In this document: piece after piece, positions 58,999-64,000 of the stretch
Layout of the letters: every line of letters starts with the position of its first letter
How positions within the stretch are numbered: position 1 is the stretch's first letter
IMG/VR virus record: IMGVR_UViG_3300025803_000010
DNA length: 64,000 bases
Reading direction: 5' to 3' (one strand)
Source: an uncultured virus (IMG/VR IMGVR_UViG_3300025803_000010)
Lineage: Duplodnaviria; Heunggongvirae; Uroviricota; Caudoviricetes
Notes under the pieces: model-generated
The model's input: only the letters and a program-made list of their open reading frames with translations
What the model was told of the DNA's origin: nothing
Database searches by the model: none
Position numbers and translations under genes: made by a program

Positions 58999-59001
58999 AA
59001 A

Positions 59002-59334
59002 TTATCCGTTCTGTCCCGTTAAGTTAGGCCCTGAAAATTTATCAGTTAATAAAGTAACTGCTGTTACATTTGTTGCTGTAGATAAATAAAGTCCGTTAGT
59101 AAATAGTATTCCATCTTCAGGTAATGAAAAATTAATTACGTCTCCAGATGGTACATCGGCTGTAAATAAATTTGTACCACCAGATGAAGATCCCGTATTT
59201 AAAGATACTTGACCAGCACCACCCCCATCAGAAGCAATAATCATTCCTTTAAGTCTTACAGGAGAAGCAATAACCACATTCGATGTTGCAGTTCCCGCTA
59301 CTCTTGTTGCTTGTATATCAGCTTTAGCTGCCAT
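59002..59334 (-). CDS. Small virion protein (own start inside the fused 311-aa ORF)
   Basis: ATG at 59334 after AAGGAG; LPEDGILF motif. Confidence 0.7.
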   Translation of the reverse strand: MAAKADIQATRVAGTATSNVVIASPVRLKGMIIASDGGGAGQVSLNTGSSSGGTNLFTADVPSGDVINFSLPEDGILFTNGLYLSTATNVTAVTLLTDKFSGPNLTGQNG

Positions 59335-59352
59335 AAAATTCTCCTTTAATTT

Positions 59353-59372
59353 GTGGCTCCCGAAGGAGCCAC
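59353..59372 (-). other. cUUCGg tetraloop hairpin between two genes
   Basis: Minus strand GTGGCTCC-TTCG-GGAGCCAC. Confidence 0.75.
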
Positions 59373-59381
59373 GATTAATTG

Positions 59382-59937
59382 TTACGCTGCAAATGCAAAA
59401 TGCACCTGTTACAGCTGCTGCTGCACCAGTGAATTCAGTTGCAATTGTCCATGTACCATCTTCAAAACACATGAAAGCAATTTTGCTACCAGTTGTTAAA
59501 AGATTAGTTGCTGCATCAGCTGGAGTGAAAACTAATTGTGTTTCACCTGCTGCTGAAGTATCAAAAGTTACTTCATTTGCTGCTCTTGATTCTATTAAAG
59601 AACCAGTCGCCCAAACATCAGTTCCAGCTGCATTAAAAGTTAAAGTTGCAGTTCCGCCAGCTGTGTCTTTAGATTGAACGTAAACAGCGATCGCACCTTT
59701 AGTTGCTGCTGGTAATGCTACAGCGCATGCTGCTGCACCTGTGTAGTTTACAGCTGCAATAATTCCATCAGCGATAGAAATGTTTGCACCTGTTGCTGTG
59801 TCAGCAAAAAGTAAACCTGTTATGTCAGGCATACCTGAGCTGTATCTTGTTGTTACAGCACCAGTAACAGAATTTTTAACAGCGACTTGAAAGCCACCTT
59901 CTGATCTGACCGGTCCTGAAAATGTAGTATTTGCCAT
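59382..59937 (-). CDS. Capsid-associated protein (MANTTFSGPVRS family) with an apparent +1 nt frameshift near the 3' end
   Basis: Removing one T from TTTT (59397-59400) gives ...TGAFAFAA-stop at 59382, just before a hairpin and the next SD. Confidence 0.65.
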
Positions 59938-59945
59938 ATTTATAT

Positions 59946-60017
59946 CCTCCTAGTTTTTTGAACATAGTCTCTAGGCCGTCGACTATACGCGTCTATGTTC
60001 TAATTAATTGTATAGTG
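59946..60017 (-). ncRNA. Candidate structured 5'-leader RNA
   Basis: 8-bp stem 59960-67/59993-60000; loop segments complementary to 60010-16 and to the SD region 59949-53. Confidence 0.5.
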
Positions 60018-60022
60018 ATTTA

Positions 60023-60051
60023 GATATATAGCAGATTTTAATAGAGTGCAA
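60023..60051 (-). promoter_or_regulatory. Sigma70-like promoter
   Basis: TTGCAC-17-TATATC just upstream of the structured leader. Confidence 0.45.
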
Positions 60052-60099
60052 GAGAACCTTATAAGAAAGTGCGATTTCAGCGATGTAGCGTTTTTTGTG

Positions 60100-60315
60100 T
60101 TACGTAGCTACAGATACGTCAGGTGCAGCGTCTTCTATCTTATTAGTCTGTTGAGCAACTTGTGCTTCAGCTAATTTGATATGACTGATGACTTGTCTTA
60201 TTTTGTCATCAATCCTTACCATATCAAGAGTATATCTTTTCTCCTGATTATAGTGCTGCGACCATTCAAGTTCTAGTCCTCTTTTCTTCGTGTAGAGTTC
60301 CTGAACGTGTGTCAT
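60100..60315 (-). CDS. Hypothetical coiled-coil protein; paralogue of 20625..20813
   Basis: VQELYTKKRGLELEW...DMVRIDDKI; SD GAGGAGG inside the upstream gene. Confidence 0.75.
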   Translation of the reverse strand: MTHVQELYTKKRGLELEWSQHYNQEKRYTLDMVRIDDKIRQVISHIKLAEAQVAQQTNKIEDAAPDVSVAT

Positions 60316-60502
60316 TTATAACCTCCTCATAGGTTAACCACAATTTGGATTTACTAGTAAATCCGTCTTTTTCCCAGACTATATCATTTTGTCCTAGTTT
60401 GTCAACTAGTGCATTTTCAAAGGCTTTATCATTATCCTCACATATAAGGTTGAAGATAGCATGATAGCCATATGCTCTGATTTGTACTCGGAAATTTTTC
60501 AT
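60266..60502 (-). CDS. Hypothetical protein; paralogue of 20435..20713
   Basis: MKNFRVQ...NDKA...LTYEEV. Confidence 0.7.
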   Translation of the reverse strand: MKNFRVQIRAYGYHAIFNLICEDNDKAFENALVDKLGQNDIVWEKDGFTSKSKLWLTYEEVINDTRSGTLHEEKRTRT

Positions 60503-60522
60503 GGGTTCTTTCTTTCTATCAT

Positions 60523-60552
60523 AAAAAAAGGGGACCCGAAAGCCCCCTTTTT
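60523..60552 (-). terminator. Rho-independent terminator after the major capsid gene
   Basis: Minus strand GGGGGCT-TTCG-GGTCCCC followed by T7. Confidence 0.85.
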
Positions 60553-60570
60553 AATTTGTTTTAGTACGAA

Positions 60571-61482
60571 TTAAGCACCTTCAACGCCGAAGATACCTCT
60601 GAAGTCAGATACTCCAAATGAGTATCTTTCTCTAGCTTTGTATCTTACGTTTCCAGTATCGAAGTCACCTTCCATAGCTGTTTTGATAGGTGATCTATCA
60701 AAGTACTTCATTCCATTAGGTATATCTGTAATGATGTAGAACGCATCTGTATCTGTGATGTAATTGTTCACTCTGTAACCTTGAGGAACCATTCCCATAG
60801 AAACGATTGCATTGATATCATTATCAGCTGTTCCTGTTCTACCTTGAGATTTCATCAATCTCTCAGCAGTGAATTGAAGTTCGCTAGGTACAATCATTTT
60901 CACGCCTCTTGCAGCAATTTTAAGACCTCTTTCGTCTGTCATTGCAGCAATATCGATTAAAGATTGCTCTAGTGAAGTTTCGTTTAAGTCAGCTTGAGTA
61001 GCCAATGTGTTCGCAACATTACCCGCTATTGTTGGGTGAGCTGTATTGAACAATGAAACACCGTCACCAGAAGTGAATGTAGCAGTTGAAGGTAAACCAT
61101 TGATTAATGGGTTAACAGCTTTAACTTGCTTAGTGTTTGACATTGATCTAGCTAATGCTTTTGTATATCTAGACGCAAGTCTATCATACAAATTGTCTTC
61201 GATCGCCTCTTCAGTTATTGCGAAAGCAAGAGCCACAGTTTCGTGTGTGTATCTCGCAGTGTAAGTCTCTTGAGCATTGTCAAAAGCTATTCCACTTCCT
61301 TCCGGTTTAACTTGAGCTTGAGCGAAGCCAGATAACATAACTTCTTCTTCAAACGCTCTGTCTGATGATTCTGAAGTGTATATTTCAGCATGCTGATTTT
61401 CGTATCTTTTATATTCCAGGCCGAATAGTGCATTCAATCCTGGCTCTAGTTCTTTAACTAGTTGTCCTCTTGATATAGCCAT
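60571..61482 (-). CDS. Major capsid protein
   Basis: MAISRGQLVKELEPGLNALFG, ITEEAIEDNLY, GDGVSLF..AHP, YKARERYSFG; follows scaffold genes; strong terminator. Confidence 0.92.
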   Translation of the reverse strand: MAISRGQLVKELEPGLNALFGLEYKRYENQHAEIYTSESSDRAFEEEVMLSGFAQAQVKPEGSGIAFDNAQETYTARYTHETVALAFAITEEAIEDNLYDRLASRYTKALARSMSNTKQVKAVNPLINGLPSTATFTSGDGVSLFNTAHPTIAGNVANTLATQADLNETSLEQSLIDIAAMTDERGLKIAARGVKMIVPSELQFTAERLMKSQGRTGTADNDINAIVSMGMVPQGYRVNNYITDTDAFYIITDIPNGMKYFDRSPIKTAMEGDFDTGNVRYKARERYSFGVSDFRGIFGVEGA

Positions 61483-62082: not shown

Positions 62083-62160
62083 ATTGTTTCTCCTTTTGCA
62101 AAACCACTCAACGTAGTTTTGCGGTTAATGTTAATTCGTTGGGTAGGAATCGTTAAAAAA

Positions 62161-63625: not shown

Positions 63626-64000
63626 TTAATATTGATGAAGTATGTCTTGTGGATTTTCGATGGTTGCTAACACTTCATCATCATTTAGCAATCTTACTTC
63701 TCCTCCATCGATTTGTATTCGGCTACCTGCATATCTTGCAAAGATAACCCAATCTCCTTTTTTACACCAAGGTCCTTCTGGAAATTTTTCTTTATCATAA
63801 CAATGTGGTCCCATTGCTAAAACTAAACCACAAGTAGATCCTACTTGTTGTCTTTCCAAAGTATCTTGGCCTAAATACAAACCACCTTTAGTTTTTTCTG
63901 GCATTTTAAAAGGAAGAATTAACATTCTCCAACCAGTTGGGTTTGGTAATTTATTTGATTCTTTTGTTTTTAAACGTTCGTACCCTTCAACTTCTTTTTG
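63626..64000 (-). CDS. groES: Co-chaperonin GroES-like (copy B), 5' end beyond the window
   Basis: LPNPTGWRMLILP, KTKGGLYL, FARYAG, RLLNDDEV; frame stays open to the window edge. Confidence 0.9.
   Translation of the reverse strand, partial: QKEVEGYERLKTKESNKLPNPTGWRMLILPFKMPEKTKGGLYLGQDTLERQQVGSTCGLVLAMGPHCYDKEKFPEGPWCKKGDWVIFARYAGSRIQIDGGEVRLLNDDEVLATIENPQDILHQY

What the first reader, a model, noticed from the sequence alone, without database searches (positions are those of the whole stretch)
59946..60017. Candidate double-pseudoknot leader RNA that could hide a ribosome-binding site
Seen (minus strand): ACUAUAC...GAACAUAG-acgc-GUAUAGU-cgacgg-CCUAG-aga-CUAUGUUC-aaaaaa-CUAGGAGG...AUG. An 8-bp stem encloses a 25-nt loop. 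One loop segment is complementary to the 5' ACUAUAC (7 bp) and another to CUAGG overlapping the SD (5 bp). A TTGCAC-17-TATATC promoter would start the transcript just upstream. Inference: a cis-regulatory RNA (translational switch, riboswitch-like element or protein-binding site) controlling a capsid-associated gene. I cannot assign it to a known family.
Basis: partly seen in the sequence, partly recalled or inferred. Interest (0 to 1): 0.7.

Follow-up and report, generated by a model that had tools for sequence, protein, structure and literature searches.

The report
Conserved knotted leader RNA in pelagiphages
Just ahead of a variable particle-protein gene of an abundant ocean virus lies a short RNA that folds into three interlocked helices, kept intact by matching mutations in hundreds of related viruses, and it appears to be a previously undescribed control element for that gene.

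Summary
One sequence alone is unremarkable (MFE z -0.43). The evidence comes from comparison. In 141 distinct leaders from relatives of Pelagibacter phage HTVC027P, 99.8% of 2820 pair cells are paired and 13 of 20 pairs show changes on both sides. A targeted test of the SD-proximal helix found 66 of 75 variant leaders compensated. G.U pairs (98) far outnumber mismatches (2) in helix b, so the structure is RNA of the gene's sense strand. The order a-b-a'-c-b'-c' is a kissing-hairpin double pseudoknot with fixed junction lengths. It starts 6 nt after a conserved promoter-like -10 box and ends in the Shine-Dalgarno sequence. It has no Rfam match and was not found in 150 other host-family genomes. 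I read it as a new cis-acting 5' leader that base-pairs the mRNA 5' end and half-covers the ribosome-binding site of a late, hypervariable virion-protein cassette. Whether it is a passive stabiliser or tuner, or a factor-responsive switch, is open. The TSS is unmapped.

The parts
60046..60051 (-). -35-like box TTGCAC
   Evidence: TTG[CT][AG]C lies 17 nt before the -10-like box in 141 of 155 unique leaders and 18 nt before it in 3. It is also kept in L037 and L017, which have other leaders.
60023..60028 (-). -10-like box TATATC
   Evidence: A TAxxxx hexamer (TATAAA 73, TATATT 22, TATAAC 16, TATAAT 11, TATATC 8 ...) lies exactly 6 nt before helix a in about 150 of 155 leaders. It was not listed by the sigma-70 scan. 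The TSS is unmapped.
60010..60016 (-). helix a, 5' strand ACUAUAC; predicted first bases of the transcript
   Evidence: Pairs with 59982-59988. Of 7 pairs, 3 covary (UA to CG in 7, AU to GC in 6, CG to UG in 6 and to UA in 1, of 141).
60001..60009 (-). variable A/U-rich linker between helices a and b
   Evidence: Length is 7-18 nt in 155 leaders. Only the first A is conserved at 90% or more.
59993..60000 (-). helix b, 5' strand GAACAUAG
   Evidence: Pairs with 59960-59967. 8 of 8 pairs covary. There are 69 distinct b/b' combinations in 206 parsed leaders, with 98 G.U and 2 mismatches.
59989..59992 (-). junction ACGC (near invariant)
   Evidence: It is 4 nt in 153 of 155 leaders. A48.A78 and C49-G77 could extend helix b (CG in 140 of 141). 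Conservation in the pattern-retrieved set is forced by the search. In the 34 protein-retrieved leaders it is ACGC or ACGA.
59982..59988 (-). helix a, 3' strand GUAUAGU
59976..59981 (-). junction CGACGG
   Evidence: Length is 6 nt in 112, 7 in 31, 8 in 9 and 9 in 3 of 155 leaders. CGAC is kept in 33 of the 34 protein-retrieved leaders (CGAT in L002).
59971..59975 (-). helix c, 5' strand CCUAG
   Evidence: Pairs with 59949-59953. Variants CCUAA/UUAGG 43, CCUAU/AUAGG 12 and CCAAG/CUUGG 11 are compensated, and 9 have one terminal mismatch, out of 75 unique variant leaders.
59968..59970 (-). junction AGA
   Evidence: It is 3 nt in 148 of 155 leaders. The last two bases, GA, are conserved.
59960..59967 (-). 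helix b, 3' strand CUAUGUUC
59954..59959 (-). A-rich linker between helices b and c
   Evidence: It is 5-7 nt in 149 of 155 leaders.
59949..59953 (-). helix c, 3' strand CUAGG, overlapping the SD
   Evidence: It is kept even where a separate SD follows (L117, L144, L145, L152, L153, L194).
59946..59951 (-). Shine-Dalgarno AGGAGG
   Evidence: The distance from the end of helix c to the ATG is 11 nt in 116 of 155 leaders.
59002..59937 (-). controlled gene (MANTTFSGPV...), read here as a 311-aa ORF because of a 1-nt frameshift
   Evidence: Homologues are 184 aa and end GAFAFAA. The window has TTTT at 59397-59400 where RNA contigs lack one base (table 4). In relatives there are two genes (HTVC027P gp62 and gp63).
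59353..59372 (-). UUCG-capped GC hairpin that closes the cassette
   Evidence: A stable GC-rich hairpin follows the variable gene in 23 of 23 loci with enough sequence. The stem covaries between the window, HTVC027P and 023Pt_psg01.

Best explanation
This is a cis-acting structured 5' leader RNA of about 70 nt, specific to HTVC027P-type pelagiphages. It opens an insulated late expression cassette: promoter, leader, hypervariable virion-protein ORF, GC hairpin.

The RNA forms three helices in the order a-b-a'-c-b'-c'. This is two hairpins, a and c, whose loops pair through helix b (a kissing-hairpin double pseudoknot), joined by short junctions of fixed length and conserved sequence.

I think it most likely works as a constitutively folded device. 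Helix a base-pairs the very first nucleotides of the transcript, which denies the host's 5'-end-dependent RNases (RNase E/G, RNase J) a single-stranded entry. Helix c places the strong SD at the edge of the fold with half of it paired, which sets, rather than abolishes, ribosome loading. The 3' hairpin protects or terminates the other end.

Shown: the three helices, the RNA strand, the fixed geometry, the linkage to the promoter-like box and the SD, the restriction to this phage gene, and late, strong expression of the HTVC027P homologue.

Inferred: the TSS, simultaneous formation of all three helices, and the effects on stability and translation.
For: Structure:
- 99.8% of 2820 cells are paired and 13 of 20 pairs covary. 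0 of 500 shuffles reach any of the five measures, and slid controls give 17.6-34.8% paired.
- The RNA-blind subset is 100% paired with 11 of 20 pairs covarying.
- In helix c, 66 of 75 variants are compensated.
- In the pooled set of 206 leaders, a has 1427 WC, 13 GU and 2 mismatches; b has 1548, 98 and 2; c has 1016, 1 and 13.
- G.U without A.C points to sense-strand RNA.

One fold rather than loose hairpins: junction lengths are fixed (4 nt in 153 of 155; 3 nt in 148 of 155; 5-7 nt in 149 of 155) while the a-b linker floats between 7 and 18 nt.

5' end:
- The -10-like hexamer lies exactly 6 nt before helix a in about 150 of 155 leaders, and a -35-like box lies at 17 nt in 141 of 155.
- In L017 a paralogue sits 9 nt after the same box with no SD, so it must be leaderless. 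This places the TSS in that interval.
- The upstream capsid operon ends in a classic terminator.

Cassette: a stable hairpin follows the ORF in 23 of 23 loci.

Expression (PMC12753301, Table S3 rows seen): HTVC027P gp62 is 'Late'. Its average TPM is 12786 against 10371 for the capsid gene at the fifth time point, and 28568 against 74585 at the last. TPM falls 3-fold to gp63 after the hairpin.

Host nucleases: RNase J is over the cut-off in 23 of 31 host-family genomes, and RNase E/G in 28 of 31.

Context: HTVC027P infection is reported to deplete cellular RNA (PMC11066056, passages).

Helix c is weak (-4.7 kcal/mol), so it cannot be a tight lock.
Against: - The TSS is not mapped. Metatranscriptome contigs could not show starts, and some run on upstream of helix a.
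- The -10-like box usually ends in A or C, not T, and the window's box was not picked by the sigma-70 scan.
- A plain 5' hairpin would be enough for protection. The near-invariant unpaired ACGC, CGAC and GA, and the elaborate topology, suggest that something specific is recognised (a protein, a ligand, the ribosome or a tertiary core), which favours the switch or operator rival.
- Covariation cannot tell whether a, b and c form together or in alternation. The nested a+c state (-8.6 kcal/mol) and b alone (-7.2 kcal/mol) are close in energy.
- Paralogues do without the element (L017 leaderless, L037 simple hairpin).
- Many of the sequences are related by descent, so cell counts overstate the number of independent events.
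- Three of the five pairs of helix c never vary and are confounded with the SD.
Confidence: 0.45

Rival explanations
1. It is a factor-responsive translational switch: a riboswitch-like element or a protein operator. A metabolite, a phage or host protein, or the ribosome recognises the invariant junction nucleotides and stabilises or opens the fold. This changes how far helix c withholds the SD.
For: - The unpaired ACGC, CGAC and GA are near invariant while the helices drift, including in the protein-retrieved set.
- The 3' strand of helix c overlaps the SD in 135 of 141 leaders.
- Junction lengths are fixed.
- Known SD-occluding pseudoknot riboswitches and r-protein or T4 gene 32 operators work this way (established knowledge, recalled).
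Against: - No Rfam riboswitch matches.
- The motif was not found in 150 other genomes of the host family, so no host regulon shares it.
- It always precedes one phage structural-type gene.
- Only 3 of 6 SD bases are paired, and 6 of 141 leaders move the SD outside the fold.
- No conserved alternative pairing was seen.
Confidence: 0.3
2. It is a bistable leader. The nested state with hairpins a and c (SD half paired) alternates with the single hairpin b (SD free). The three helices never coexist.
For: - The two nested states have similar energies, -8.6 and -7.2 kcal/mol.
- Covariation supports each helix but not their coexistence.
Against: - The strict junction lengths and the invariant GAC/GAC at the inner end of helix b are what a single compact fold predicts.
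- b lies in the loop of a, and b' in the loop of c, so the kissing arrangement needs no unfolding.
Confidence: 0.1
3. It is an RNA that acts on something other than translation: a self-cleaving or processing element, or a put-like antitermination signal read by RNA polymerase.
For: - It lies at the very start of a transcription unit, has conserved unpaired bases, and is followed by a terminator-like hairpin behind the gene.
- The a/b crossing resembles P1/P2 of HDV-like ribozymes (recalled).
Against: - No ribozyme family matches.
- Only 4 nt lie where an HDV P3 would be.
- TPM still drops 3-fold after the downstream hairpin in HTVC027P.
Confidence: 0.07
4. It is a DNA-level signal, such as palindromic protein-binding sites (ACGCGT, GTCGAC, CCTAG) or a recombination boundary for swapping the variable gene, and not an RNA structure.
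For: - The core holds three short palindromes.
- The leader plus the first ~12 codons form the conserved edge of a hypervariable cassette whose proteins range from 68 to 191 aa.
Against: - There are 98 G.U pairs against 2 mismatches in helix b, and 63 G.U cells against 7 non-standard cells in A1. This is expected only for RNA of the sense strand.
- The helices covary while keeping complementarity over distances of 35-50 nt.
Confidence: 0.03

Closest known systems
SD-occluding pseudoknot riboswitches (SAM-II / SAM-V of marine alphaproteobacteria, preQ1-II) - recalled
   Same: A short 5'-UTR pseudoknot whose 3' strand overlaps the Shine-Dalgarno sequence, with conserved unpaired bases. The host clade is known for such RNAs.
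   Different: Those are single H-type or HLout pseudoknots that sit before metabolic genes in bacterial genomes. This one has three helices in kissing-hairpin order and gives no Rfam hit. It was not found in 150 other host-family genomes and sits only before a phage virion-type gene.
Phage T4 gene 32 mRNA 5' pseudoknot operator - recalled; mentioned in PMC10690425 (passages)
   Same: A phage mRNA with a pseudoknot at its extreme 5' end that takes part in translational control.
   Different: In T4 the pseudoknot is followed by a long unstructured tract up to the RBS and is bound by the gene's own ssDNA-binding product. Here the SD abuts the fold, and the product is a variable all-beta protein.
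E. coli alpha-operon (rpsM) S4-binding double pseudoknot - recalled
   Same: A double pseudoknot that includes the ribosome-binding region of an mRNA.
   Different: That one extends past the start codon and traps the 30S subunit with S4. There is no sequence or topological match here, and the start codon lies 11 nt outside the fold.
5'-terminal mRNA stabilisers (ompA leader hairpin, Bacillus/SP82 5' stabilisers) - recalled
   Same: A base-paired 5' terminus next to a strong SD on a highly expressed message. The host family has RNase E/G and RNase J.
   Different: Known stabilisers are simple hairpins without conserved unpaired bases. This one is a three-helix knot.
Viral xrRNAs (PMC12397905, abstract read)
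   Same: Compact pseudoknotted folds of viral RNAs that block 5'-dependent nucleases.
   Different: xrRNAs are defined by a ring around the 5' end and are known from eukaryotic RNA viruses. No ring could be tested here.

Membership tests
Any Rfam 15 family | Covariance-model match at or near the gathering score | tested here: not met
   Window 59000-61000 gave 13 matches with E up to 10, none over its gathering score and none on 59946-60017. Twelve diverse leaders gave 6 matches, all below gathering and none shared between leaders.
Kissing-hairpin (ABACBC) double pseudoknot | Three helices in the order a-b-a'-c-b'-c', each supported | tested here: met
   In helix a, 3 of 7 pairs covary. In b, 8 of 8. 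In c, 2 of 5, and 66 of 75 targeted variants are compensated.
Kissing-hairpin (ABACBC) double pseudoknot | All three helices present in one molecule at once | not testable with these tools
   Only indirect evidence is available: fixed junction lengths.
SD-sequestering pseudoknot riboswitch | The pseudoknot strand covers the SD | tested here: inconclusive
   3 of 6 SD bases are paired. In 6 of 141 leaders the SD lies outside the fold.
SD-sequestering pseudoknot riboswitch | The same RNA precedes genes of one metabolic pathway in cellular genomes | tested here: not met
   1 of 151 host-family genomes has it, and that one hit lies on a 59.5-kb contig before the same phage gene.
SD-sequestering pseudoknot riboswitch | Specific ligand binding | not testable with these tools
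   This needs in-line probing or ITC.
T4 gene 32-type autogenous operator | A 5' pseudoknot followed by a long unstructured tract to the RBS, with a nucleic-acid-binding gene product | tested here: not met
   The SD overlaps helix c. The product has no family and models as all-beta.
5'-terminal mRNA stabiliser | The transcript's first nucleotides are base-paired | tested here: inconclusive
   Helix a starts 6 nt after the -10-like box in about 150 of 155 leaders, and the leaderless paralogue L017 is consistent with this. The TSS is unmapped.
5'-terminal mRNA stabiliser | The host has 5'-end-dependent RNases | tested here: met
   RNase J is over the cut-off in 23 of 31 genomes and RNase E/G in 28 of 31.
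Intrinsic terminator / attenuator | A GC-rich hairpin followed by a U tract on the transcribed strand | tested here: not met
   Helix b is A/U-rich and is followed by an A run. It was not listed by the terminator scan.
Small self-cleaving ribozymes (HDV-like, pistol, hatchet, twister) | Family model match and the family's extra helices | tested here: not met
   There are no hits. Only 4 nt lie between b and a', and there is no hairpin between b' and c'. Cleavage itself is not testable here.

The most novel reading that the evidence does not exclude
The leader is a bacterial-virus counterpart of an exoribonuclease-resistant RNA. In this reading, a three-helix knot at the 5' end, paired with a GC hairpin at the 3' end, makes the message for a hypervariable surface protein survive RNase J and RNase E while the infected SAR11 cell's own RNA, ribosomes included, is being consumed.
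Probability: 0.12. Interest if true: 0.85.

Novelty: new variant of a known kind. Interest (0 to 1): 0.66.

Why it matters
HTVC027P-type phages infect SAR11, the most abundant bacteria of the surface ocean.

- It would add a structurally unusual RNA family: three covarying helices in kissing-hairpin order, within about 70 nt.
- It gives a handle on how these phages express a hypervariable virion protein late in infection, in cells whose RNA is being degraded.
- It offers a small, well-defined object for structural work and for 5'-UTR engineering.

Tried and rejected
- Single-sequence folding is not informative (z -0.43). RNAalifold recovers only helix b because the fold is knotted.
- Metatranscriptomes. 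Four RNA runs kept as Logan contigs cover the leader. Summed depth peaks on 59916-60003 and falls upstream, but this reflects pile-up of many related phages on the conserved part. No table of starts was returned and some contigs continue upstream. The TSS was therefore not determined and no expression ranking was made.
- The window's own assembly is not held. The nearest virus record, G001, lacks the core.
- The genome-contig scan returned mostly chance hits in GC-rich genomes. 3 of 120 carry the whole motif.
- Catalogue of 8495 viral candidate RNAs (PMC10690425). Neither the core sequence nor six contig names were found in the readable supplements. The alignment and diagram archives (mmc2, mmc4, mmc5) could not be read, so the motif may be listed there.
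- Protein function. There is no Pfam hit and only a PHROG of unknown function. The PDB sequence search gave only chance-level antibody hits. The AlphaFold model has low confidence (pLDDT 61.5), and its Foldseek matches are weak (best E 1.8e-3, TM about 0.4), so they are only a hint of a spike- or fibre-like protein.
- HDV-like, pistol, terminator and uORF readings were considered and dropped. The required elements are missing, and the AUG inside b' is not conserved.
- Earlier findings of this scan returned nothing.

Full report
**What is in the window**

On the minus strand, the 162-nt gap between a 71-aa ORF (stop at 60100) and the ORF that begins MANTTFSGPV (ATG 59937-59935) reads as follows.
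- TTGCAC at 60051-60046, then 17 nt, then TATATC at 60028-60023, then 6 nt.
- ACTATAC, helix a 5' strand, at 60016-60010.
- A 9-nt A/U linker.
- GAACATAG, helix b 5' strand, at 60000-59993.
- ACGC.
- GTATAGT, helix a 3' strand, at 59988-59982.
- CGACGG.
- CCTAG, helix c 5' strand, at 59975-59971.
- AGA.
- CTATGTTC, helix b 3' strand, at 59967-59960.
- AAAAAA.
- CTAGG, helix c 3' strand, at 59953-59949, running into the SD AGGAGG at 59951-59946.
- 8 nt, then ATG.

As a single sequence it is unremarkable. The nested MFE is -12.8 kcal/mol, z = -0.43, and 61 of 200 shuffles fold as well. Rfam gives nothing on it, and the consensus promoter scan did not list the box.

**Where it comes from**

The window is a relative of Pelagibacter phage HTVC027P and of phage 023Pt_psg01. 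These are the only two of 50,697 GenBank phage records that match the region.

The gene order around the element is:
- scaffold-like protein;
- two unknown genes;
- major capsid protein (PF25209, phrog_371), followed by a classic terminator at 60547-60523;
- two small ORFs;
- the leader;
- the MANTTF gene;
- a GC hairpin;
- further small genes.

Both named phages keep all three pairings with different letters. In HTVC027P, helix a is ACTGTAT/GTACAGT. In 023Pt_psg01, helix b is TAAATATA/TATATTTA.

**Comparative test**

I collected leaders in two ways.
- Through the neighbouring 71-aa protein, which is blind to the RNA. 156 of 161 candidate stretches were confirmed and 80 loci were kept.
- Through the 16-nt core pattern in IMG/VR.

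A MAFFT alignment of 141 distinct leaders (A1) was scored against the three-helix structure.
- 99.8% of 2820 cells are standard pairs. The shuffle mean is 90.0%, and 0 of 500 shuffles reach the observed value.
- 13 of 20 pairs change on both sides. The shuffle mean is 7.6, and 0 of 500 reach it.
- 277 cells change on both sides, against a shuffle mean of 67.5.
- The covariation score is 0.315, against 0.112.
- Sliding the partners by 1-3 columns gives 17.6-34.8% paired and scores of 0.014-0.048.

By helix, 3 of 7 pairs covary in a, 8 of 8 in b, and 2 of 5 in c.

In the 34 leaders retrieved through the protein alone (A2), 100% of 680 cells pair and 11 of 20 pairs covary. Helix c there shows only one G-U change.

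Because helix c was the weakest, I tested it directly. I scanned IMG/VR for leaders whose c strand differs from CCTAG at one position, leaving c' free.
- Position 3 variants gave 22 stretches.
- Position 4 variants gave 0 stretches.
- Position 5 variants gave 106 stretches.

Of 75 unique variant leaders, 66 carry the matching change in c': CCTAA/TTAGG 43, CCTAT/ATAGG 12 and CCAAG/CTTGG 11. The other 9 have one terminal mismatch.

Pooling all sets gives 322 loci, 222 unique 120-nt leaders and 206 parsed leaders (16 were dropped by the parser for an atypical a' strand).
- Helix a has 1427 Watson-Crick cells, 13 G.U and 2 mismatches.
- Helix b has 1548, 98 and 2, with 69 different b/b' combinations.
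- Helix c has 1016, 1 and 13.

The many G.U pairs, with almost no A.C, mean the pairing is in RNA of the gene's sense strand and not in DNA or the opposite strand.

Caveats: many sequences are related by descent, so cells are not events. The pattern-based sets fix the core by construction.

**Anatomy**

The order a-b-a'-c-b'-c' is the kissing-hairpin class of pseudoknot. Hairpin a carries b in its loop, hairpin c carries b' in its loop, and the loops pair.

The junctions have fixed lengths.

| Junction | Length |
|---|---|
| b to a' | 4 nt in 153 of 155 |
| c to b' | 3 nt in 148 of 155 |
| a' to c | 6 nt in 112, 7 in 31, 8 in 9, 9 in 3 |
| b' to c' | 5-7 nt in 149 of 155 |
| a to b | 7-18 nt, variable |

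An invariant GAC on each side of the inner end of helix b could extend it by A.A and C-G (CG in 140 of 141). The unpaired ACGC, CGAC and GA are nearly invariant even in the protein-retrieved set.

This pattern fits one compact fold better than two alternating hairpin states. Covariation cannot prove coexistence, though, and the nested states are close in energy: a+c is -8.6 kcal/mol and b is -7.2 kcal/mol. As duplexes, a is -5.6, b is -8.0 and c is -4.7 kcal/mol.

**Boundaries**

At the 5' side:
- A TAxxxx hexamer lies exactly 6 nt before helix a in about 150 of 155 unique leaders.
- A TTG[CT][AG]C box lies 17 nt further up in 141 of 155, and 18 nt further up in 3.
- Several of the rest have a terminator-like GC stem with a T run and an extended -10-like TGnTATAAT instead.
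- The same box drives a paralogue in L017 whose ATG lies 9 nt after the hexamer with no SD. That gene can only be translated as a leaderless mRNA, which places the start of transcription in that interval.

The predicted transcript therefore begins at, or within a base or two of, the first paired base of helix a. This is inference. The TSS is unmapped, and most hexamers end in A or C rather than the consensus T.

At the 3' side, c' overlaps the first three bases of AGGAGG in 135 of 141 leaders. In 6 leaders, CTAGG is kept and a separate AAGGAG follows. Helix c is thus a part of the fold in its own right, and covering the SD is not its only reason to exist.

**The gene and the cassette**

The proteins behind the leader share only about 12 N-terminal residues, MA(N/Q/S/K)T(T/L)FxGP(V/I/L). 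They then diverge completely and range from 68 to 191 aa in 24 loci.

The window's version belongs to a 184-aa family. There were 793 hits at E <= 0.001, with the best at 94% identity. It has no Pfam family. An AlphaFold model is all-beta but of low confidence (pLDDT 61.5). Its best Foldseek matches are weak:
- a Klebsiella phage KP1 baseplate chain (9f4a), E 1.8e-3;
- CBA120 TSP4 N-terminal domains (7rej), E 2.8e-3;
- Pa223 capsid spike, E 3.5e-2;
- T4 gp9, E 0.68, and T4 gp10, E 1.0.

A conserved N-terminal anchor with a variable exposed body is a reasonable reading, but a weakly supported one.

Every variable gene examined (23 of 23) is followed by TAA, a stable GC hairpin of one of several types, an A/U spacer, an SD and the next ATG. 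The unit is therefore promoter, leader, variable ORF, hairpin.

In HTVC027P the homologue gp62 is classed 'Late'. Its average TPM is 12786 against 10371 for the capsid gene at the fifth of seven time points, and 28568 against 74585 at the last. gp63, behind the hairpin, is 3-fold lower. (PMC12753301: I read section 12 and six rows of Table S3.) That fits a promoter of its own and partial termination or decay after the hairpin.

**Where it is not**

A covariance model built from A1 (R1) found the motif in 1 of 151 genomes of the family of a Pelagibacteraceae single-cell genome. That one hit lies on a 59.5-kb contig before the same gene.

Twelve diverse leaders gave no shared Rfam match.

Literature:
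- 0 papers hold both 'pelagiphage' and 'pseudoknot'.
- None of the 10 papers holding 'pelagiphage' and 'riboswitch' concerns this element, judged from titles and abstract openings.
- A catalogue of 8495 candidate viral RNAs (PMC10690425, passages read) may contain it, but its alignment archives could not be read.

**How it most likely works**

The element sits where post-transcriptional control is exerted, and it is cis-linked to one gene. Two of its features have direct mechanistic meaning.
- The 5' terminus is predicted to be paired.
- Half of a very strong SD is held in a weak 5-bp helix at the edge of a compact fold.

The host family encodes both RNase E/G (28 of 31 genomes over the cut-off) and RNase J (23 of 31). 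Both enzymes prefer accessible 5' ends (established knowledge, recalled).

HTVC027P infection is reported to strip cells of rRNA and to use 'all available RNA' (PMC11066056, passages).

Other late genes of the window also carry a hairpin just before the SD.

I therefore favour a constitutive device that shields the 5' end and sets ribosome loading, matched by the 3' hairpin (confidence 0.45).

The main rival is a factor-responsive switch or operator (0.30). The invariant unpaired nucleotides argue for it: a mere stabiliser would not need them. Its absence from host regulons, and the leaders that move the SD out of the fold, argue against it.

The other rivals are:
- a bistable a+c versus b leader (0.10);
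- a ribozyme or antitermination role (0.07);
- a DNA-level signal (0.03).

**Novelty and verdict**

This is a real, widespread, strongly covarying RNA motif with an uncommon topology. It is absent from Rfam 15 and from the literature I could search. Its general kind, a pseudoknotted 5' leader touching the SD, is known. This family and its three-helix kissing architecture appear to be new. Its function remains to be shown.

Noticed in passing
window 59397-59400 (minus strand T run); ORF 59002-59937: The 311-aa ORF is two genes run together. Homologues of the first gene are 184 aa and end GAFAFAA-stop. The window has TTTT where related RNA contigs have one base fewer, so the frame runs through the hairpin and SD into the next gene (ATG 59334). 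This could be a homopolymer assembly error or a natural frameshift variant.
   Followed up: partly
window 59353-59372 and loci L003-L079 downstream of the variable gene: A stable GC hairpin follows the variable gene in 23 of 23 loci. Several types occur, including a UUCG/UUAG-type tetraloop stem and a ~45-nt bipartite stem. Each is followed by an A/U spacer, an SD and the next ATG. The stem covaries between the window, HTVC027P and 023Pt_psg01. It may be a leaky terminator or a 3' stabiliser.
   Followed up: partly
L017:1201-1500: There are tandem paralogues of the MAxTTF gene. The first is driven by the same promoter-like box but with the ATG 9 nt after the -10-like hexamer and no SD, so it is apparently leaderless. 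The second has its own box plus the knotted leader.
   Followed up: partly
L037:1413-1600: The same promoter-like box sits in front of a different leader, a simple 7-bp hairpin, and a different gene (MTTHFTSGVTNV...).
   Followed up: no
window 60052-60099 (minus strand): A ~30-nt block just upstream of the -35-like box (…CGCTACATCGCTGAAATCGCAC…) is conserved across many loci. It contains a short direct repeat (ATCGC twice) and an inverted repeat with the end of the 71-aa gene. It may be an activator site or UP-like element.
   Followed up: no
window 60378-60405 (minus strand): The best sigma-70-type match of the region is TTGACA, 16 nt, TATAGT with TG (11 of 12). It lies inside the 78-aa ORF, upstream of the 71-aa gene.
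   Followed up: no
window 60523-60547 (minus strand): A textbook intrinsic terminator (GC stem plus T7) lies directly after the major capsid gene. It insulates the downstream small genes and the leader cassette from the capsid operon.
   Followed up: partly
window 62093-62117 (minus strand): A 7-bp hairpin (GCAAAAC...GTTTTGC) lies 4 nt before the SD of the 192-aa gene. A hairpin followed by an SD seems a recurrent design of late genes in this phage.
   Followed up: no
L239 (genome contigs, 6.3-kb contig of a MAG titled Thermoplasmatota archaeon): This contig carries the complete pelagiphage leader and MAxxTF gene. It is probably a phage contig binned into an archaeal MAG.
   Followed up: no
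window 63626-63925 (minus strand): A 99-aa ORF looks like a GroES-type co-chaperonin by eye. This is a recalled resemblance and was not tested.
   Followed up: no
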